Positions 28-8,608 of a stretch of 64,000 nucleotides of DNA are shown in pieces. A program made the position numbers and the translations under genes. The DNA is from a virus. The stretch covers positions 32,001 to 96,000 of IMG/VR virus record IMGVR_UViG_3300027833_000021; one strand, given 5' to 3'. The notes under the pieces were generated by a model. The model saw nothing but the letters and a program-made list of their open reading frames with translations. It ran no database searches and was not told where the DNA came from. Positions within the stretch are counted from its first letter, which is position 1, and each line of letters begins with the position of its first letter.

Positions 28-261
28 ATGCGAAACGAAAAGATGAATCTTAAGCAACAACTAGAAGAGTTGAAAGTCTTAGCAGGTATCTATAAGCCAT
101 ACCAAATGGAAGATAGTACGCAAGAGAATATTTCCTATACGGGTACTGAAAAATCTAAGTATCAAAAGAAACATAAAGTAGAACCAGGAACAAAAGAGTG
201 GTTCAAGTTATGGTTTTCAAAACCTTATATGACAGGTGAAAACCCATACGGGAAGAAATGA
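28..261 (+). CDS. Conserved phage hypothetical protein (PGTxEWFKLWF motif)
   Basis: ORF with GAGGA RBS; motif recalled from large-phage late genes. Confidence 0.7.
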   Translation: MRNEKMNLKQQLEELKVLAGIYKPYQMEDSTQENISYTGTEKSKYQKKHKVEPGTKEWFKLWFSKPYMTGENPYGKK

Positions 262-262
262 T

Positions 263-1471
263 ATGAAAGTTAGAGACATATTAGGCGCAGGCTTAGAAAG
301 AAGATTTAGAGGTCCAAGAAAACCTCGTAATAAACAAATTGGTTTTCATCAGAAGATGAAGAAACTACTGGACAAAGCACTTAATGAAGAAGGTGCTAGA
401 ATTCAGCATTTAGAAGACTTAATTATCTGGGATGGTTCAGTCGGTGGTCAAAAAGCAATTGCAAAACTACATCAAGTAGAAACTTCTCCAAAATCAATTA
501 GTATTAAATGGGATGGCTCACCAGCCGTTATCTTTGGTCGTAATGAGAATGGCGAATTTGTTCTTACAGACAAAAGTGGATTTGGTGCTAAAGGTTATGA
601 TGGCAGAGTAACAAGTGCAGATGCGTTAGGTGATATGTTTAACAATCGTAAAATGCGAGACCCATCGCCAGAAAAAGTAGCAGACAAAGAAGCGTTTGTT
701 AATAATATGAAAACTATATGGGACAAAGTTGAAAGTGTTATACCTGCGGATTTCAGAGGATACTTACACGGTGACTTGTTATGGTTCTCAACACCACAAT
801 CAAAAGACGGTAGACTTATATTCAAGCCAAACACAACAACATATTCAGTAGATGCTAAAAGTGATATCGGTAAAAAGATAATCAACTTTGATGTAGGTAT
901 CGTAGTTCATGTAGTGATTGACTTAGATGGCAATAAAAGCAATGTAGATATGGGCAAACTTCAAGCAGGTAAAACATGGATTATGCCTCCAGTATATGTT
1001 ACTAAATCTCCTGGTGTTGACTTACCAGAAGTAGACAGATTAGAAAGTTATTTAAAATCAAATGCAAATGCAATTGATAAGTTACTAGCAGTTCCAGCCG
1101 AATTAAAAATGGCAGACTTTGGTAACATTCTTTACACTTATATCAATAATAGTGTAAAAGCAGGCAACCTAGATAAACTAGGAAAAAATTTCAGTGAATG
1201 GGTAGAAACATCAAAACTAAGTGGACCTAAGAAAGAACGAGCAGTTCAGTGGGTAGAACAAAATAGTGATGGCTTTGAAGCAATCTTCCAATTCATTAAT
1301 GGTGTTATGACCACAAAGAACAAAATTATTAAAACGTTAGATTCTCAACCAGCAGATATCGAAGCCAGTACAAATGGCGAAAGAGGTGGAGAAGGCTATG
1401 TGATAGATAAAGATGTGAAACTGGTAAATAGAGCAGGGTTCACAGCGGCAAACATGAGGCAAGAGAGATAA
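263..1471 (+). CDS. DUF6267-like protein with ligase-type nucleotidyltransferase motifs
   Basis: KWDGSPA (KxDG motif I), HGDLL, GEGYV and VKLV resemble ligase motifs. Start moved to ATG 263 (MKVRDIL), just after the upstream stop. Confidence 0.7.
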   Translation: MKVRDILGAGLERRFRGPRKPRNKQIGFHQKMKKLLDKALNEEGARIQHLEDLIIWDGSVGGQKAIAKLHQVETSPKSISIKWDGSPAVIFGRNENGEFVLTDKSGFGAKGYDGRVTSADALGDMFNNRKMRDPSPEKVADKEAFVNNMKTIWDKVESVIPADFRGYLHGDLLWFSTPQSKDGRLIFKPNTTTYSVDAKSDIGKKIINFDVGIVVHVVIDLDGNKSNVDMGKLQAGKTWIMPPVYVTKSPGVDLPEVDRLESYLKSNANAIDKLLAVPAELKMADFGNILYTYINNSVKAGNLDKLGKNFSEWVETSKLSGPKKERAVQWVEQNSDGFEAIFQFINGVMTTKNKIIKTLDSQPADIEASTNGERGGEGYVIDKDVKLVNRAGFTAANMRQER

Positions 1472-2756: not shown

Positions 2757-3047
2757 ATGGCTTCAAATACACTAGGTGGACAATCAAACGGTCTAGGTTC
2801 AAAAACTACAATCGTTAAATTAGCACTAACAAACATGACAGCGGCTAACTTAGGCACTATCTATGCGGCAATGGGCGCATTAGGTCACACAGTTGCTGGT
2901 TCAGGTACAGCAGACGGTTCAGCATTCGTGGCTGGCACAACTGACGTATTATTCATCGCTCTACAAGGCGTTGACTATACAGCAGACGCTACAAATGCCC
3001 ACGGCGTAACTGGCGCGGTTACTACTGTTGAAGCAGTAATTGGCTAA
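2757..3047 (+). CDS. Small virion structural/decoration protein
   Basis: Strong AAGGAG RBS, high-expression codon bias, Ala/Gly/Thr-rich, own late promoter and terminator. Confidence 0.75.
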   Translation: MASNTLGGQSNGLGSKTTIVKLALTNMTAANLGTIYAAMGALGHTVAGSGTADGSAFVAGTTDVLFIALQGVDYTADATNAHGVTGAVTTVEAVIG

Positions 3048-3069
3048 TACCTAAACTTTTAATTAAGTG

Positions 3070-3098
3070 AAAAAGCCCTCTTTATGAGGGCTTTTTTT
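3070..3098 (+). terminator. Intrinsic terminator GCCCTC-TTTAT-GAGGGC-T7
   Basis: GC hairpin plus U-tract; same hairpin at 53701. Confidence 0.9.
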
Positions 3099-3128
3099 AT
3101 GTCTAAACATATCCTTTTAATCTTTTTA

Positions 3129-3136
3129 TATAAATA
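3129..3136 (+). promoter_or_regulatory. Late promoter TATAAATA
   Basis: Exact T4 late consensus about 200 nt upstream of the giant fibre gene. Confidence 0.8.
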
Positions 3137-3300
3137 CATGTGTAAGAGATTCAACTCTTACAGATGGTTGAGATATCTTCCGACCAATCAGATGCATGAG
3201 ACTTTTCCGTGCAGTACATTGAGAATCCTTCCGATGTATAAAAAATAAAAATAAGTAAAATAAACGTTATGTATATTATTTCATGGAATGGTCCGTGGAG
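3137..3300 (+). promoter_or_regulatory. Structured 5' leader with tandem TGAGA-N2-3-YTTCCG hairpins
   Basis: Hairpins at 3141-3162, 3166-3185, 3193-3213, 3214-3239 and 3280-3299. Confidence 0.65.
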
Positions 3301-3335
3301 TAATTAATAACAATGGCTAATTATAGGAGATAATA

Positions 3336-6300
3336 ATGGCTGATATTAAAAACTTTGGTATCCGTGGTATAGGTGCTGATGTTCAGTTCGGTAAGTCGGG
3401 CGGTCGTGTTGTATATGATTCAGGTAATTCCCTGTTCAAAGTAACAACTGACGGTACTACTTTAGGTAACATGAATGTTGCAACTCCAACTTCGGACAAC
3501 CATGCGGCAAACAAGAGTTATGTTGACTCAATCGCTTCTGGACTTGATGTTAAACAATCAGTTCGTGCGGCTTCAACAGCAGATGTAACTCTAAGTGGAC
3601 CGGGCGCAACAATCGATGGCGTAACTATGTCATCAGGTGACCGTGTTCTACTAAAAAACCAGTCGGCAGCGGCTGAAAATGGTATCTATCTATGGACAGG
3701 TGCGGCGTCAGCAATGACACGTGCAACTGATATGGACGGTGCCGCTGAATTTGTTGGCGCTTTTTTCTTTGTTGAAGAAGGTACAATAAACTCAGACCAA
3801 GGCTTTGTATGTTCAACTAACGGTACAATTACTGTTGATACAACTGCAATCGCCTTTACACAATTCACAGGTACTGGTCAGTTAACAGCAGGTAATGGTT
3901 TATCTAAATCAGGTAACACATTCAATATTAACGTTGACGATACATTTGTGGAAATTAATGGTTCAGATGAACTAACTATTAGAGGTACTTCGACTACTGG
4001 TCAAGCACTACTTTCAGACGGTTCAAATGGTGTAACATATGGTGCAGTTAACTTAACTTCTTCAAGTGCAGTTACTGGTGCTTTACCATTAACAAACGGC
4101 GGTTTAGGTGTTGATGCATCTGATTCATCAGGCAAAACTACAGCACGTTCAAACTTAGGTTTGGGCTCAATGGCTACTCAGAACTCTGGTTCTGTTGCTA
4201 TTACAGGCGGTTCAATTGATATTTCTGGTGGTACATTAACTCTAGCAAATGACCAAATCTCTGGTAACTCAATTTCTGGTGGTACAATTGACTCAGCGAA
4301 CCTTTCAGGTGGCGCAGGCAAGACTATCTCTGGTTTCGATGTAACAATCGCGGCTGGTAAAACATTAGACGTTGACGGTGCAGTAGATATCGATGCTTCA
4401 AGTGGTAACATGGATGGCGTTGCTATCGGTGGTACAACTTCAGCGGCTGGTACATTTACAACTATGGCTTCTGACTCAGTAGATATTAATGGTGGTGCTG
4501 TTGACGGTACAACTATTGGTGCTAACGTGGCAGCGGCAGGTACATTTACAAACGTAGATGCTACTGGTACAATCAAAACTAATACACTAGACAACTATGA
4601 TGGCACAAACATTACTGTTTCTGCTCCATTGGATGTTACTGGTGATATTACTGTAACTGGTCAAGTCTCTGCGACTACCGGTATGGTTACAGACACAATT
4701 GCTGAATTAACTGGTAATGCTGGTGTAACTGTTGATAGTGTTGTACTTAAAGACGGTGTTGTAACTGGTGATTTAACTGGTGATGTAACTGGTGATGTAA
4801 CTGGTAACTTAACAGGTAACTCTGCTGGTGTTCATACAGGTAATGTAACTGGTAACTTAACTGGTAACAGTGCAGGTGTTCATACAGGCGCAGTAACTGG
4901 TAATGTAACTGGTGATGTAACTGGTAACTTAACAGGTAACTCTGCTGGTGTTCATACAGGTAATGTAACTGGTAATGTAACTGGTGATGTAACTGGTGAT
5001 GTAGCAGGTGATGTAACTTCAACTGGAACTTCAACGTTTGCAACTGTTGACGTTAACGGCGGTGCAGTAGATGGAACAGTAATTGGTGCTAACACATCAG
5101 CGGCTGGTACTTTCTCAACAATGACAACAGCAGATGCGGCTATAACAGGCGGTGCTATTTCAGGAACAAGTATTGACCTTTCAGGACAAACTTTGACATT
5201 GACTTCGGACTCTGTGTCTGGTGATTCAGTTCATGGTGGTACTATTTCTAACTTCGCATCAACTGGTATTGACGATAATGCATCATCAACAGCATTGACA
5301 ATCGATTCAAGTCAAAATGCTACATTTGGTTCAGACTTAACAGTTACTGGTGACTTAACAGTTAACGGTTCTGTAACTTCAATCTCTTCAACTAACACTA
5401 CTATCGAAGACAACACAATTGTTTTAAACAATGGTGAGTCTGGTGCTGGTGTAACTGAAGGTTCAGCAGGTATTTCTATCGACCGTGGTACAGCGGATGA
5501 TGCACTTATCAACTGGAATGAGACAACAGATGAGTTCGAACTAAAAGTTGGTGCTTCATATGGTGACTTAAAAGTTTCAGCACTTACAGGTGATGTAACT
5601 GGTGCCCTAACTGGTAACGTAACAGGTAATGTAACTGGTAATGTAACAGGTAATGTAACTGGTGATTTAACAGGTGATGTAACTGGTGATTTAACTGGTG
5701 ACGTAACAGGTAATGTAACTGGTAATACTGCTGGTGTTCATACTGGTAATGTAACTGGTAACGTAACAGGTAACGTAACTGGTGATTTAACTGGTGACTC
5801 TGCTGGTACACATACTGGTGCAGTTGTTGGTAACGTAACAGGTAACGTAACTGGTGATTTAACTGGTGATGTAACTGGTGATGTAACTGGTGATGTAACT
5901 GGTGATTTAACAGGTAACTCTGCTGGTACACATACTGGTGCGGTTGTTGGTAATGTAACTGGTAACTTAACAGGTAACGTAACAGGTAATGTTTCTGGCA
6001 ATGCTGGAACAGTAACTAACGGTGTTTATACAACTGACACTGGAACAGTAACTAACACAATGTTAGCAGGTTCAATTGGTAATGCTAAATTATCAAATAG
6101 TTCATTTACTGTTGGTTCAACTGCGATTAACCTTGGTGATACAACGACAAGTCTTGCAGGCTTATCTTCAGTAACATCAACGGCATTCGTAGGTGATTTA
6201 ACTGGTGACGTAACTGGTGATACTGCTGGTACTCATACTGGTGCAGTAACTGGTAACGTAACTGGTAACATTACTTCAGCAGGTACAAGTACATTTACAG

Positions 6301-8405
6301 ACGTTGACGTTAACGGCGGTGTTATTGATGGAACAACTATTGGTGCAACATCATCAGCGGCTGGTACATTCTCAACATTGGCATCTGCTTCAGCGACATT
6401 AACTGGTGGTACTGCTACTGGCATGACAACAGTTACAGCGACTAACCTAAACTCAGGTAACGTTGGTATTACTGGTGGTTCTATTTCAGGAACATCAATC
6501 GACTTATCAGGTCAAACCCTAACTCTAGGTAATGACTCAGTTTCAGGTGACTCAATCCACGGTGGTACTATTTCTAACGCTTCATTGGCCGGTGACGCTA
6601 CCGACACAATGACTGGTTATGATATTACTGTTGGTGCGGGACGTGAATTAGACGTATCTTCGGGTACTCTAACACTAGGTGCTAACCAGATTTCTGGTGA
6701 TAAAGTACACGGTGGCACAATCTCTGATTTTGCTTCAACTGGTATCGATGATAACGCTACATCAACTAAAGTAACTCTATCTGATACAACTGCAACATTT
6801 GGTGTTGCTGGTGACTTCGGTTCTAACGACCTAGACGCCGGTGCTTCAACACTTGGTTCGCTTTCTGTAACAGGTAATGCTTCAATTACTGGTAACTTGA
6901 CAGTTTCTGGTTCAGTAACTACAACTTTATCTGAGATTGTAAATATCGAAGATAACAACATTGTTCTTAACTCAAACGCAACTGGTTCGGCTACTGCTGA
7001 TGCTGGTATTACGATTGAGCGTGGTGATGATGATAATGCTGTTGTTCTCTGGAACGAAACTTCAAATGCATTCGAACTTACTGTAGGCGCGGCTAAGGCT
7101 GACCTAACAGTTAATGATTTGACTGTAAATGAGATGACACTAGCAACTGACCTTGCGGCAAGCATGGGTGGTACGGGTACTGATACTTCAGCATTCGCGG
7201 CTTCATCTATCATGTTAAACAGTGGTTCAGGTACAGTAACAGAATTGGCGAAAGGTGCTAACTCAACTGTATTAAAAGTTGGTTCAACTGGTACTCTAGG
7301 TTATGCAAAAGTCGATTTGACTGCTGACGTAACTGGTACAATGCCAATAGCAAATGGTGGTACAGGTATCACTTCAGCAGGTTCTGATAATAAAGTTATG
7401 ACTTCAGACGGTTCTGCATTAGGTATGGAATATGTACAACATGTACGTAATTCAACTGGTGTAGTTGCGTTAGACGGTTCTGGCGTTACTTCAGGTTCTG
7501 GTGAATATATCGCAATTACTAACGCTACTGGTAAAGTAACACTAACAGCCAAAAATGCGGCGGCATCTGGTGCTGTAGATATGTATCTACAAGGCCAAGG
7601 TGGCGGTGACGTATTTATTGTTGGTCAATCTGGCGAAGCCTTAATTCAAGGTGAAAACGATACAGACCTAACAGTTGCTGGTGGTGATGCTTCTGGCGGT
7701 GATGCTGGTGACTTAATCATCAAAGGTGGTAACGGTACAGGCGGTAACGCCTCTGGTGCAGTTGTCATTAAAGGTGGTAACGGTGGTGCATCAGACGGAA
7801 ACGTTCAAATTAAAGGTGCAGATGATACAGCAATCGCTACTTTCGTAGAGACTGCCTCAGCAACTGACTCTTTAACAGTAACTAACGGAACTGGCGGTGT
7901 AGAACTAGCAATGTCTGGTGGCACAAACGTCAACATGAACTTAGCACCAAAAGGCGCAGGTATTATTCTTGCACCAAATGGCTATGACATGTCTTCAGCG
8001 GCAGACCACGCCCTAGCAACTAAAGAATATGTAGATGACAAAGCGTCAACTTCAGGTTCTTCTGGTACTAGACGTGTTGAGTTTACTGCTAACGGTTCTT
8101 CATCATTTACAATCGGCACAATGGCTAACATTTCAGGAAAAACTTATTACATTAAGCGTATCACTGCAAAAGTTACTACTGCGTTTGTTGGTTGTGATGA
8201 ATTAGTCGTTTCTGACGGTACAAATACTCTAATGTCTGCAAGTGAGGCTGACCTTTCTGAAGGCGGTTTATATATTGTTGATTTAGGTTTTGACGATGCT
8301 ACAACAGGCGGCGCAACTATTACTGGTACTTTACAGAATGGCGGCTCATCTGCTTCACCTACAACTGGTGTTATAATTGTTACTGCGGAATACAAGCAAC
8401 TCTAA
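3336..8405 (+). CDS. Giant G/T/S-rich virion fibre protein (1689 aa)
   Basis: AGGAG RBS; fibre-type motifs (AANKSYVD, GLDVKQSVRAA, DRVLLKNQ, TLPIANGGTG-like); TG[ND][VL] repeats; late promoter and terminator. Confidence 0.85.
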   Translation: MADIKNFGIRGIGADVQFGKSGGRVVYDSGNSLFKVTTDGTTLGNMNVATPTSDNHAANKSYVDSIASGLDVKQSVRAASTADVTLSGPGATIDGVTMSSGDRVLLKNQSAAAENGIYLWTGAASAMTRATDMDGAAEFVGAFFFVEEGTINSDQGFVCSTNGTITVDTTAIAFTQFTGTGQLTAGNGLSKSGNTFNINVDDTFVEINGSDELTIRGTSTTGQALLSDGSNGVTYGAVNLTSSSAVTGALPLTNGGLGVDASDSSGKTTARSNLGLGSMATQNSGSVAITGGSIDISGGTLTLANDQISGNSISGGTIDSANLSGGAGKTISGFDVTIAAGKTLDVDGAVDIDASSGNMDGVAIGGTTSAAGTFTTMASDSVDINGGAVDGTTIGANVAAAGTFTNVDATGTIKTNTLDNYDGTNITVSAPLDVTGDITVTGQVSATTGMVTDTIAELTGNAGVTVDSVVLKDGVVTGDLTGDVTGDVTGNLTGNSAGVHTGNVTGNLTGNSAGVHTGAVTGNVTGDVTGNLTGNSAGVHTGNVTGNVTGDVTGDVAGDVTSTGTSTFATVDVNGGAVDGTVIGANTSAAGTFSTMTTADAAITGGAISGTSIDLSGQTLTLTSDSVSGDSVHGGTISNFASTGIDDNASSTALTIDSSQNATFGSDLTVTGDLTVNGSVTSISSTNTTIEDNTIVLNNGESGAGVTEGSAGISIDRGTADDALINWNETTDEFELKVGASYGDLKVSALTGDVTGALTGNVTGNVTGNVTGNVTGDLTGDVTGDLTGDVTGNVTGNTAGVHTGNVTGNVTGNVTGDLTGDSAGTHTGAVVGNVTGNVTGDLTGDVTGDVTGDVTGDLTGNSAGTHTGAVVGNVTGNLTGNVTGNVSGNAGTVTNGVYTTDTGTVTNTMLAGSIGNAKLSNSSFTVGSTAINLGDTTTSLAGLSSVTSTAFVGDLTGDVTGDTAGTHTGAVTGNVTGNITSAGTSTFTDVDVNGGVIDGTTIGATSSAAGTFSTLASASATLTGGTATGMTTVTATNLNSGNVGITGGSISGTSIDLSGQTLTLGNDSVSGDSIHGGTISNASLAGDATDTMTGYDITVGAGRELDVSSGTLTLGANQISGDKVHGGTISDFASTGIDDNATSTKVTLSDTTATFGVAGDFGSNDLDAGASTLGSLSVTGNASITGNLTVSGSVTTTLSEIVNIEDNNIVLNSNATGSATADAGITIERGDDDNAVVLWNETSNAFELTVGAAKADLTVNDLTVNEMTLATDLAASMGGTGTDTSAFAASSIMLNSGSGTVTELAKGANSTVLKVGSTGTLGYAKVDLTADVTGTMPIANGGTGITSAGSDNKVMTSDGSALGMEYVQHVRNSTGVVALDGSGVTSGSGEYIAITNATGKVTLTAKNAAASGAVDMYLQGQGGGDVFIVGQSGEALIQGENDTDLTVAGGDASGGDAGDLIIKGGNGTGGNASGAVVIKGGNGGASDGNVQIKGADDTAIATFVETASATDSLTVTNGTGGVELAMSGGTNVNMNLAPKGAGIILAPNGYDMSSAADHALATKEYVDDKASTSGSSGTRRVEFTANGSSSFTIGTMANISGKTYYIKRITAKVTTAFVGCDELVVSDGTNTLMSASEADLSEGGLYIVDLGFDDATTGGATITGTLQNGGSSASPTTGVIIVTAEYKQL
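4760..5020 (+). repeat. Degenerate 12-nt coding tandem repeat (ACTGGT[AG]A[TC][GT]TA = TG[ND][VL]), block 1
   Basis: Visible tandem units; includes a near-exact duplication at a 120-nt offset (about 4791-4855 vs 4911-4975). Confidence 0.9.
5585..6000 (+). repeat. TG[ND][VL] coding tandem repeat, block 2
   Basis: Same 12-nt unit, interrupted by AG[TV]HTG inserts. Confidence 0.9.
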
Positions 8406-8451
8406 TTTGTGAGTAATCTAACGTAATTATTACCATCATGGTGATAATAGA

Positions 8452-8479
8452 AAGGGGGACTTCGTGTTCCCCTTTTTTT
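8452..8479 (+). terminator. Intrinsic terminator
   Basis: AAGGGGGAC-TTCGT-GTTCCCCTT followed by a T-tract. Confidence 0.9.
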
Positions 8480-8608
8480 ATGTCTTATAGCCAAAGTGTT
8501 ACCAGAGTAATATTAGCATATTAGATAAATACTTACAGAACTAAAATCTTTAACGACAGACTTAATTTATTAAGACTGACATGAAATAACCGACGTTGAG
8601 GAACGACA

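What the first reader, a model, noticed from the sequence alone, without database searches (positions are those of the whole stretch)
3137..3300. Tandem array of covarying hairpins with a conserved TGAGA-N2-3-YTTCCG cap in the leader of the giant fibre gene
Seen: after TATAAATA (3129) and a first hairpin come three adjacent hairpins: GGTTG-agatatcttc-CGACC, TGCATG-agacttttc-CGTGCA and GTACATTG-agaatccttc-CGATGTAT. The stems differ in sequence but all pair, while the U-G/G-C closure and the AGA...UUC loop are kept. A degenerate copy (TTCATG-gaatggtc-CGTGGA) sits at 3280-3299. This is the pattern expected of repeated structure-plus-loop protein-binding sites. Inference: a multivalent operator for translational control, antitermination (nut/put-like) or stabilisation of the 5-kb mRNA. 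I do not recognise it as a known family.
Basis: seen in the sequence. Interest (0 to 1): 0.75.

Follow-up and report, generated by a model that had tools for sequence, protein, structure and literature searches.

The report
Hairpin-array leader RNA of phage fibre gene
The three look-alike hairpins are real, evolutionarily maintained RNA structures in the untranslated leader of a giant fibre gene of an uncultured marine jumbo T4-like phage, and they most likely form an undescribed gene-specific switch on translation of that one mRNA.

Summary
Observation confirmed. TATAAATA (3129) is followed by a 5'-terminal hairpin H1 and three adjacent hairpins H2-H4. They share one cap: closing U.G/G-C, bulged A, G-C, A-U, 4-5-nt pyrimidine loop. 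A fifth hairpin, H5, lies at 3275-3304.

The + strand folds far better than shuffles (z -4.7); the - strand does not (z +0.27). In 16 distinct homologous leaders 96% of pair cells stay paired and 11 pairs show compensatory changes. Across marine viromes I found 38 distinct hairpin units with about 20 different stems but a nearly invariant cap.

Copy number is 3, 2, 1 or 0 in progressively more distant relatives. The motif occurs only in this leader: in the 115-kb fragment, and once each in two near-complete 342-kb relatives. Rfam has no match.

The pyrimidine half of the cap (YCUUCC) is complementary to the fibre gene's Shine-Dalgarno sequence: 7-9 bp in single-hairpin relatives and 7 bp for H2 here. 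The statistics are only modest, and H3/H4 keep structure rather than complementarity.

Best reading: a cis-acting translational operator that masks the ribosome-binding site, probably read by an unknown factor. Antitermination is unsupported. The scan had already found this family on another genome (e1-5359848), with the same reading.

The parts
3074..3099 (+). Intrinsic terminator of the upstream 96-aa gene (7-bp GC-rich stem, T-run)
   Evidence: Sequence. Conserved in relatives even where the upstream gene differs.
3129..3136 (+). T4-type late promoter box TATAAATA; predicted start about 3141-3142
   Evidence: A (T/C/G)ATAAATA box is conserved 4-5 nt before H1 in all clades. NATAAATA occurs 42 times on the + strand and 11 on the - strand of the record, mostly 19-45 nt before start codons. 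The start site itself is inferred.
3141..3162 (+). H1, 5'-terminal hairpin (8 bp)
   Evidence: Compensatory A-U to U-A and G-C to C-G changes in relatives, and loop length differs by 5 nt.
3165..3186 (+). H2, cap hairpin 1: 6-bp lower stem, bulged A3171, G3172-C3180, A3173-U3179, loop UAUCU. Nucleotides 3174-3180 (UAUCUUC) are complementary to 3326-3332.
   Evidence: 99.2% of cells paired and 2 compensatory pairs. Model R1 scores 36 bits. Complementarity to the Shine-Dalgarno region: 7 bp, -6.1 kcal/mol.
3193..3213 (+). H3, cap hairpin 2: 6-bp lower stem, bulged A3199, 2-bp upper stem, loop CUUU
   Evidence: 99.2% of cells paired and 3 compensatory pairs, including the upper A-U to U-A change.
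3214..3239 (+). H4, cap hairpin 3: 8-bp lower stem, bulged A3222, 2-bp upper stem, loop AUCCU. It abuts H3 with no linker.
   Evidence: 96.9% of cells paired and 4 compensatory pairs. Model R1 scores 37.7 bits.
3240..3268 (+). A-rich single-stranded spacer (AUAAAAAAUA... conserved). Relatives insert an extra hairpin here.
   Evidence: Alignments.
3275..3304 (+). H5, 13-bp hairpin with loop AUGG. Its 3' arm (GGAGUAAU) resembles the real ribosome-binding site and its 5' arm can pair with that site instead.
   Evidence: 91.5% of cells paired and 2 compensatory pairs. The alternative duplex with the ribosome-binding site is -11.7 kcal/mol.
3313..3333 (+). Six-codon upstream reading frame (MANYRR) covering the Shine-Dalgarno sequence. 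Its stop lies 2 nt before the main ATG.
   Evidence: Sequence. Kept in the closest array clades but absent in the L273 clade and in single-hairpin relatives, so it is probably not essential.
3325..3338 (+). Shine-Dalgarno AGGAGA (3325-3330), spacer and ATG (3336) of the fibre gene
   Evidence: Invariant in 16 leaders. In nested folds the Shine-Dalgarno sequence is mostly unpaired (p 0.88) and the AUG is paired.
3336..8405 (+). Fibre gene, 1689 aa
   Evidence: ORF. PHROG matches to tail-fibre and decoration families. N-terminal relatives in many phages.
8449..8477 (+). Intrinsic terminator closing the single-gene unit
   Evidence: It is followed by the same 12-mer as the terminator at 3074-3099.

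Best explanation
The stretch is the roughly 195-nt 5' leader of a single-gene late mRNA for the 1689-aa fibre. It folds into a 5'-terminal hairpin (H1), three tandem bulged-A hairpins (H2-H4), an A-rich spacer, a fifth hairpin (H5), and a small hairpin that displays the Shine-Dalgarno sequence.

The array is a gene-specific, cis-acting translational operator. The pyrimidine 3' half of each cap (YCUUCC) is an anti-Shine-Dalgarno sequence. In the simpler relatives a single hairpin exposes it in a 10-12-nt loop, which can pair with GGAG plus its 3' flank. That would form a long-range pseudoknot that masks the ribosome-binding site.

In this phage the module is triplicated. H2 keeps 7 nt of complementarity (3174-3180 with 3326-3332). 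Each anti-Shine-Dalgarno sequence is locked against a Shine-Dalgarno-like GAGA across an invariant bulged A. Access is therefore probably set by co-transcriptional folding or by an unidentified factor that reads the caps.

Shown here: the structure, its conservation, its strand, its restriction to this one leader, its varying copy number, and the complementarity. Inferred: the transcription start, the pairing with the ribosome-binding site, the direction of regulation, and any binding factor.
For: Structure:
- + strand z -4.70; - strand z +0.27.
- RNAalifold recovers H1-H5, including the bulged A.
- In 16 distinct leaders 96.1% of pair cells are paired, against 49% or less in slid controls. 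Eleven pairs have compensatory changes, and 0 of 500 shuffles reach the covariation score.
- 38 distinct cap hairpins: bulge A in 37, the G-C pairs invariant, about 20 different lower stems.

Gene specificity:
- A covariance model of one hairpin finds no other copy in the 115-kb record, nor elsewhere in the 99-kb and 90-kb array-bearing relatives among the five larger records searched.
- The single-hairpin loop motif occurs once in each of two 92-100% complete 342-kb relatives.
- The leader travels with the fibre gene even when the upstream gene differs.

Anti-Shine-Dalgarno reading:
- In 9 of 10 single-hairpin leaders tested, RNAduplex picks the hairpin loop as the best partner of the ribosome-binding site.
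- Matched pairs: GUUUCUUC with GGAGAAAC, GUUCUUC with GGAGAAC, UAUCUUC with GGAGAUA.
- The one loop position outside that duplex varies (U, C or G), while the rest is invariant across at least 6 different stems.

Context:
- The usual late leader in this phage is 19-45 nt; this one is 199 nt.
- The Shine-Dalgarno sequence is otherwise unpaired, so masking would need the cap.
Against: - The complementarity is only modestly beyond chance for a pyrimidine-rich loop: p about 0.02-0.08 by loop shuffling.
- The own-versus-cross matrix of loops and ribosome-binding sites is only partly specific, because G.U pairs are tolerated.
- Two other three-hairpin clades (L265, L273; Shine-Dalgarno GGAGAAAUU) keep only the 4-5-bp core.
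- H3 variants CUAAUCC and CUAUACC lose the complementarity but keep the 2-bp upper stem through compensation. The hairpin architecture and the bulged A are therefore selected in their own right, which points to recognition by a factor.
- In this phage the anti-Shine-Dalgarno sequence of H2 is partly buried in a stable hairpin.
Confidence: 0.45

Rival explanations
1. A multivalent protein operator. The caps (closing pairs, bulged A, G-C, A-U) are three binding sites for an RNA-binding protein of the phage or the host, possibly a multimer such as the trimeric fibre itself or its chaperone. That protein represses or activates translation or protects the mRNA. The resemblance to an anti-Shine-Dalgarno sequence would be incidental or secondary.
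For: - Both strands of the cap are nearly invariant while the lower stems change freely.
- The bulged A is kept in 37 of 38 units, and also as the first loop base of the single hairpins, where it lies outside the proposed duplex.
- H3 keeps its upper pair by compensation while losing complementarity to the Shine-Dalgarno sequence.
- Spacing between bulged A's is held at 26-28 and 23-26 nt (sum 51-52), while the distance to the ATG varies from 113 to 137 nt.
- The architecture (lower stem, bulged A, 2 bp, 4-5-nt loop) is the same as that of the coat-protein operators of RNA phages. This last point is from my own knowledge.
Against: - No candidate protein was found. There is no RegA-type repressor in this record or in two complete relatives, although the control genomes did not match that family either.
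- Neighbouring proteins have no RNA-binding family.
- No second site exists anywhere in complete relatives.
- It does not explain the extended loop-to-flank complementarity in single-hairpin relatives.
Confidence: 0.3
2. An mRNA stabiliser or processing barrier. H1 and the hairpin array protect the 5-kb late mRNA from 5'-end-dependent RNase attack, or define a processing site in the A-rich spacer. No sequence-specific reader would be involved.
For: - H1 starts at the predicted +1 in every clade.
- Many late leaders of this phage begin with a hairpin.
- An A/U-rich single-stranded tract follows H4.
- Protection of mRNA by 5' stem-loops is established knowledge.
Against: - Stability needs only stems, yet the caps are nearly invariant and the stems are free to vary.
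- More distant relatives of the fibre gene manage with H1 alone and a roughly 70-nt leader.
- Other long genes of the phage have short leaders.
Confidence: 0.12
3. A processive antitermination element (nut- or put-like) that lets RNA polymerase read through the 5-kb gene.
For: - The gene is long, and there is one weak terminator-like hairpin inside it at 3743-3759.
- Tandem hairpins close to the promoter recall the put elements of phage HK022. This is from my own knowledge.
Against: - No Rfam match.
- The loops are pyrimidine-rich and not boxB-like, and there is no boxA.
- The unit ends at a strong terminator.
- Terminator-like hits inside the gene are few and weak.
- T4-type late transcription is not known to use such elements (established knowledge).
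Confidence: 0.05
4. A leader-derived trans-acting small RNA. H1-H4 would be released by cleavage in the A-rich spacer, and its CUUCC caps would target Shine-Dalgarno sequences of other phage or host mRNAs, as the C-rich loops of RNAIII or RsaE/RoxS do.
For: - Several hairpins carry anti-Shine-Dalgarno-like pyrimidine motifs.
- An A/U-rich tract after H4 could be an RNase E or Hfq site.
Against: - No terminator follows H4.
- In the array form UUCC is base-paired, not looped out.
- The best complementarity is to the gene's own ribosome-binding site.
Confidence: 0.05

Closest known systems
5' UTR of the maturation (A-protein) gene of MS2 and other Levivirus phages
   Same: - Both are leaders of a virion attachment-protein gene.
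- Both have a 5' hairpin followed directly by an upstream complementary sequence, which pairs over a long distance with the Shine-Dalgarno sequence.
- Further hairpin arms lie in between.
- The complementary sequence can be held in a hairpin (PMC4615214). Here the anti-Shine-Dalgarno cap of H2 sits directly 3' of H1, and H3-H5 lie between it and the ribosome-binding site.
   Different: - This is a DNA jumbo phage with a T4-type late promoter, and there is no sequence or Rfam relationship.
- The complementary sequence lies in the cap of a stable, covarying hairpin (a pseudoknot geometry), not in a metastable one.
- The module is repeated three times with an invariant bulged A.
- The kinetic gating of MS2 has not been shown here.
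Coat-protein translational operator hairpins of RNA phages (MS2/R17, PP7, Qbeta)
   Same: A lower stem, a single bulged A, a short upper stem and a small loop. The MS2 operator has 2 upper pairs and 4 loop bases, as H3 has. This description of the operators is from my own knowledge.
   Different: - The loop adenines that MS2 coat protein needs are absent; the loops here are CUUU, UAUCU and AUCCU.
- The hairpins lie more than 100 nt upstream of the start codon instead of containing it.
- No coat-like protein is known here.
uS15 operator on rpsO mRNA (a pseudoknot with a U-G/C-G motif) and other ribosomal-protein entrapment operators
   Same: A hairpin whose loop pairs with the ribosome-binding region to form a pseudoknot, with a conserved wobble pair next to a G-C pair that matters for recognition (PMC10931766).
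   Different: - The wobble motif has the other strand arrangement here: U and G on one strand, C and G on the other.
- It is replaced by C-G or U-A in natural variants.
- There are three copies, and the gene is a phage late structural gene.
Small RNAs with several C/U-rich anti-Shine-Dalgarno loops (S. aureus RNAIII, RsaE/RoxS)
   Same: Several hairpins each carrying a pyrimidine motif complementary to GGAG. This comparison is from my own knowledge.
   Different: - This is a leader, not a separate transcript with its own terminator.
- The motif is CUUCC, partly inside a stem.
- The likely target is in cis.

Membership tests
Any Rfam 15 family | Covariance-model match at or near the gathering score | tested here: not met
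   cmscan of 2900-3500 at E up to 10. The best hits score 27 bits or less, lie on the terminator at 3043-3100, and are all far below their gathering scores. Nothing falls on 3163-3239.
Levivirus maturation-gene 5' UTR (upstream complementary sequence pairing with the Shine-Dalgarno sequence) | An upstream sequence directly 3' of the 5' hairpin is complementary to the Shine-Dalgarno sequence | tested here: inconclusive
   H2 cap 3174-3180 with 3326-3332 gives 7 bp; single-hairpin relatives give 7-9 bp. By shuffling, p is only about 0.02-0.08, and two array clades keep only 4-5 bp.
Levivirus maturation-gene 5' UTR (upstream complementary sequence pairing with the Shine-Dalgarno sequence) | Homology or RNA-phage context | tested here: not met
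   The record is a DNA phage with a T4-like terminase, UvsX and a gp32-like protein, and there is no Rfam hit.
Levivirus maturation-gene 5' UTR (upstream complementary sequence pairing with the Shine-Dalgarno sequence) | Kinetic gating by a metastable hairpin | not testable with these tools
   This needs folding kinetics or translation assays.
MS2-type coat-protein operator | Bulged A, 2-bp upper stem, 4-nt loop | tested here: met
   H3 has exactly this layout; H2 and H4 have 5-nt loops.
MS2-type coat-protein operator | Adenines at the first and last loop positions, and a hairpin that contains the regulated start codon | tested here: not met
   The loops are CUUU, UAUCU and AUCCU, and the ATG lies 97-162 nt downstream.
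Lambda nut / HK022 put antitermination RNAs | boxA plus a boxB hairpin with a GNRA-like purine loop, or the two-stem put fold | tested here: not met
   The loops are pyrimidine-rich and there is no Rfam match.
uS15 rpsO operator | An obligatory U-G/C-G motif | tested here: not met
   The strand arrangement differs, and the wobble pair is replaced by C-G or U-A in several natural units. The motif definition is taken from PMC10931766.
Trans-acting anti-Shine-Dalgarno small RNA (RNAIII / RsaE type) | An independent transcript ended by its own terminator | tested here: not met
   There is no terminator-like site between H4 and the ATG on the + strand.
T4-type late transcription unit | A TATAAATA box a few bases before the start, on the coding strand, with no -35 element | tested here: met
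   The box lies at 3129-3136 and is conserved in all clades. It shows a genome-wide bias to the coding strand and to positions just upstream of genes. The late sigma factor gene was not looked for.

The most novel reading that the evidence does not exclude
The three evenly spaced bulged-A caps are a trivalent operator read by a trimeric protein, either the fibre itself or its assembly chaperone. Unassembled fibre would then feed back on its own translation by freeing or clamping the anti-Shine-Dalgarno caps. That would be autogenous translational control of a structural gene in a jumbo DNA phage, using an RNA design that arose independently of, but resembles, the MS2 maturation-gene leader.
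Probability: 0.12. Interest if true: 0.8.

Novelty: new variant of a known kind. Interest (0 to 1): 0.6.

Why it matters
Very little is known about control after transcription in jumbo and marine T4-like phages, and late structural genes are usually assumed to be set by promoter and Shine-Dalgarno strength alone.

Here one gene, the largest fibre, carries a dedicated structured leader of about 200 nt. The leader is conserved in a widespread group of uncultured marine phages. Its repeat number has evolved from 0 to 1 to 2 to 3.

It is a clean natural series for asking how an anti-Shine-Dalgarno hairpin module is duplicated and tuned, and it is a candidate new RNA family for Rfam. If a protein reads the caps, it would be a new RNA-protein pair of potential use as a tool.

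Tried and rejected
- Coding reading. The 54-codon ORF at 3084-3248 starts inside the terminator and crosses H1, whose loop differs by 5 nt between relatives, which shifts the frame. Rejected.
- DNA-level operator or cruciform. Conserved T.G wobble pairs would be C.A mismatches on the other strand, and the - strand does not fold. Rejected.
- Dispersed repeat or regulon. There is no other copy.
- Known RNA families, ribozymes and riboswitches. No Rfam match.
- uS15 mimicry. The motif orientation differs and the wobble pair is dispensable.
- RegA-type repressor. PF01818 was not found, but the control genomes did not match it either, so this is weak.
- Neighbouring proteins. PHROG and Pfam scans gave no RNA-binding family.
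- DNA search of cultured phages. No match. The 96-aa upstream protein has no match there either.
- Two gapped-pattern scans of the virus collection failed on the server. An exact 16-mer scan worked, but about a third of its hits were chance matches.
- Sigma-70-like promoter inside the array (3219-3246). It is at chance level (16 sites found, 16 expected).
- Literature. No paper describing such a leader was found.

Full report
**1. What is there**

The upstream 96-aa gene ends at 3047 and is followed by a strong intrinsic terminator (3074-3099). An exact TATAAATA box lies at 3129-3136. H1 (3141-3162) begins five bases later. Then come H2 (3165-3186), H3 (3193-3213) and H4 (3214-3239), an A-rich spacer, H5 (3275-3304), the Shine-Dalgarno sequence AGGAGA (3325-3330), and the ATG of a 1689-aa ORF at 3336. 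That ORF has tail-fibre and decoration-like PHROG matches. A second terminator at 8449-8477 closes the unit. The fibre gene is therefore a single-gene late transcription unit with a leader of about 195 nt.

**2. Is it more than chance?**

- TGAGA-N(2-6)-TTCCG occurs three times in the window against 0.32 expected.
- It occurs three times in the whole 115-kb record, all here.
- The + strand RNA folds to -55.9 kcal/mol, z -4.70, with no shuffle of 200 as good.
- The reverse complement folds to -29.7 kcal/mol, z +0.27.
- The conserved U.G pairs also point to an RNA made from the + strand, not to a DNA palindrome.

**3. Anatomy of the repeated unit**

RNAalifold and single-sequence folding agree on the layout. 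It is a lower stem of 6-8 bp, a bulged A, a G-C pair, an A-U pair, and a loop of 4-5 mostly pyrimidine bases.

**4. Relatives**

No cultured phage matches at DNA level. Protein-guided and pattern searches of IMG/VR and marine metagenomes gave many homologous leaders.

- On 16 distinct leaders of the closest clade, 96.1% of pair cells are standard pairs, against 26-49% when partners are slid. Eleven of 39 pairs show changes on both sides, and no shuffle of 500 reaches the observed covariation score.
- H1 also shows compensatory changes and a 5-nt difference in loop length. That rules out the 54-codon ORF at 3084-3248.
- Across all loci I counted 38 distinct cap hairpins with about 20 different lower stems. 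The bulge is A in 37, the two G-C pairs are invariant, and the upper A-U pair is once replaced by U-A through a double change.
- The pair below the closing G-C is usually U.G, but C-G or U-A in some clades.

**5. Distribution**

- Three copies: the window clade and three further clades with entirely different stems (L262, L265/L284, L273/L281/L298/L306).
- Two copies: L245.
- One copy: relatives with 62-88% identity in the fibre N-terminus. Their loop is open, 10-12 nt, A-N-GU(U)UCUUC(C).
- None: more distant relatives that share only the first 50 or so residues. They have a roughly 70-nt leader with H1 only.

The leader stays with the fibre gene when the upstream gene differs. Within arrays the distances between bulged A's are 26-28 and 23-26 nt (sum 51-52), while the distance to the ATG ranges from 113 to 137 nt.

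**6. Gene specificity**

- A covariance model of one unit finds only these hairpins in the record. The next best hits are 13 bits or less, at E 0.24 or worse.
- The same model finds array copies only at the fibre leader in the two array-bearing relatives, of 99 and 90 kb, among the five larger records searched.
- CheckV estimates shown by the tool put this record at about 31% of a genome, so the negative result here is incomplete.
- In two 342-kb relatives rated 100% and 92% complete, the single-hairpin loop motif occurs exactly once, and one-mismatch hits are at control level.

There is no regulon. The element serves one mRNA.

**7. Promoter**

- (T/C/G)ATAAATA is conserved 4-5 nt before H1 in every clade.
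- In this record NATAAATA occurs 42 times on the coding strand and 11 on the other. About half of the 42 lie in the 6% of non-coding DNA, typically 19-45 nt before a start codon.
- The phage has a T4-like terminase, UvsX and a gp32-like protein.
- TATAAATA is the T4 late-promoter consensus (established knowledge). The start near 3141-3142 is inferred from that, not measured.
- At 199 nt this is one of the few long late leaders.

**8. Function**

The 3' half of the caps is YCUUCC, which can pair with GGAG.

- In 9 of 10 single-hairpin leaders tested, RNAduplex chooses the hairpin loop as the best partner of the ribosome-binding site, at -8.5 to -12.5 kcal/mol.
- The loop tracks the flank of the Shine-Dalgarno sequence: GUUUCUUC with GGAGAAAC, GUUCUUC with GGAGAAC. 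In the window clade H2 has UAUCUUC with GGAGAUA.
- The geometry is that of an H-type pseudoknot: lower stem, two or three bridging bases beginning with the invariant A, then the loop-to-ribosome-binding-site helix.
- In nested folds the Shine-Dalgarno sequence is otherwise exposed, with unpaired probability 0.88.

This fits the logic of the MS2 maturation-gene leader. [quoted passage not shown]

**9. Limits of that reading**

- Loop shuffles reach the observed complementarity in 2-8% of trials.
- The own-versus-cross matrix is only partly specific.
- Two three-hairpin clades keep just the 4-5-bp core.
- H3 variants lose the complementarity while preserving the upper stem by compensation.
- The bulged A, which lies outside the proposed duplex, is almost invariant.

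Something therefore also reads the cap architecture itself: a protein, or a tertiary contact. I found no candidate. PF01818 (RegA) gave no hit, although the control genomes did not match that family either. Neighbouring proteins have no RNA-binding family. I keep masking of the ribosome-binding site as the lead mechanism (0.45) and a protein operator as a close rival (0.30). The two are not exclusive.

**10. Other readings**

- Antitermination has no positive support.
- Stabilisation fits H1 but not the invariant caps.
- A released small RNA is unlikely without a terminator.

H5 is not a simple degenerate cap. It is a 13-bp covarying hairpin. Its 3' arm resembles the real ribosome-binding site, and its 5' arm can pair with that site at -11.7 kcal/mol. 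This hints at a second, local switch.

**11. Earlier scan notes**

A look-up made after I had reached this reading showed that the same family was noted and followed up on another genome (e1-5359848). Its conclusion was the same: one to three copies, and masking versus protein binding left unsettled.

**12. Verdict**

This is a real, conserved, undescribed cis-regulatory RNA family. It is a new variant of the anti-Shine-Dalgarno leader idea, repeated and capped by a bulged-A motif. The mechanism is inferred.

Noticed in passing
window 3093-3104 and 8474-8485: The 12-mer TTTTTTATGTCT occurs only twice in the 115-kb record, directly after the two terminators that bracket the fibre unit. The repeats may mark the borders of an exchangeable fibre cassette. 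Upstream genes differ between relatives while the terminator and leader are kept.
   Followed up: partly
whole record (G000, 115,064 bp): The record is rated about 31% complete. Relatives are 342-369 kb, and one has direct terminal repeats. This is therefore a fragment of a marine jumbo phage with a T4-like terminase, UvsX and a gp32-like protein.
   Followed up: partly
whole record; for example window 2662, 8524, 9477, 22071, 44311, 57254: NATAAATA boxes, most often GATAAATAC, lie 42:11 on the coding versus the other strand and usually 19-45 nt before start codons. This gives a late-promoter map of the phage. Other unusually long late leaders begin at window 37152 (200 nt), at window 56672 (244 nt) and at genome position 113847 (212 nt).
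   Followed up: partly
window 3313-3333: A six-codon upstream frame, ATG GCT AAT TAT AGG AGA TAA, covers the Shine-Dalgarno sequence and stops 2 nt before the main ATG. The stretch from the H5 3' arm to this ATG looks like a duplicated ribosome-binding site. The frame is present in the closest clades and absent in the L273 clade and in single-hairpin relatives.
   Followed up: partly
relatives, between H4 and H5 (for example L016:3494-3514, L018): An optional extra hairpin (GAAUCCUCUUUGAGG...) is inserted in the A-rich spacer of some relatives, with its own compensatory change from CCUC/GAGG to CCUU/AAGG.
   Followed up: no
window 3310-3345: A conserved AGCUAUU-like block upstream of the Shine-Dalgarno sequence can pair with AAUGGCU (the start codon and second codon). 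This displays the Shine-Dalgarno sequence in a loop while burying the AUG, whose unpaired probability is 0.02-0.17 in the hairpin-bearing clades.
   Followed up: no
window 3743-3759: A terminator-like hairpin with a T-run lies about 400 nt inside the fibre ORF on the coding strand. It could be chance.
   Followed up: no
window 236-1471: The 411-aa protein three genes upstream of the fibre gene matches only DUF6267 (Pfam, 1.7e-33) and a PHROG of unknown function.
   Followed up: no
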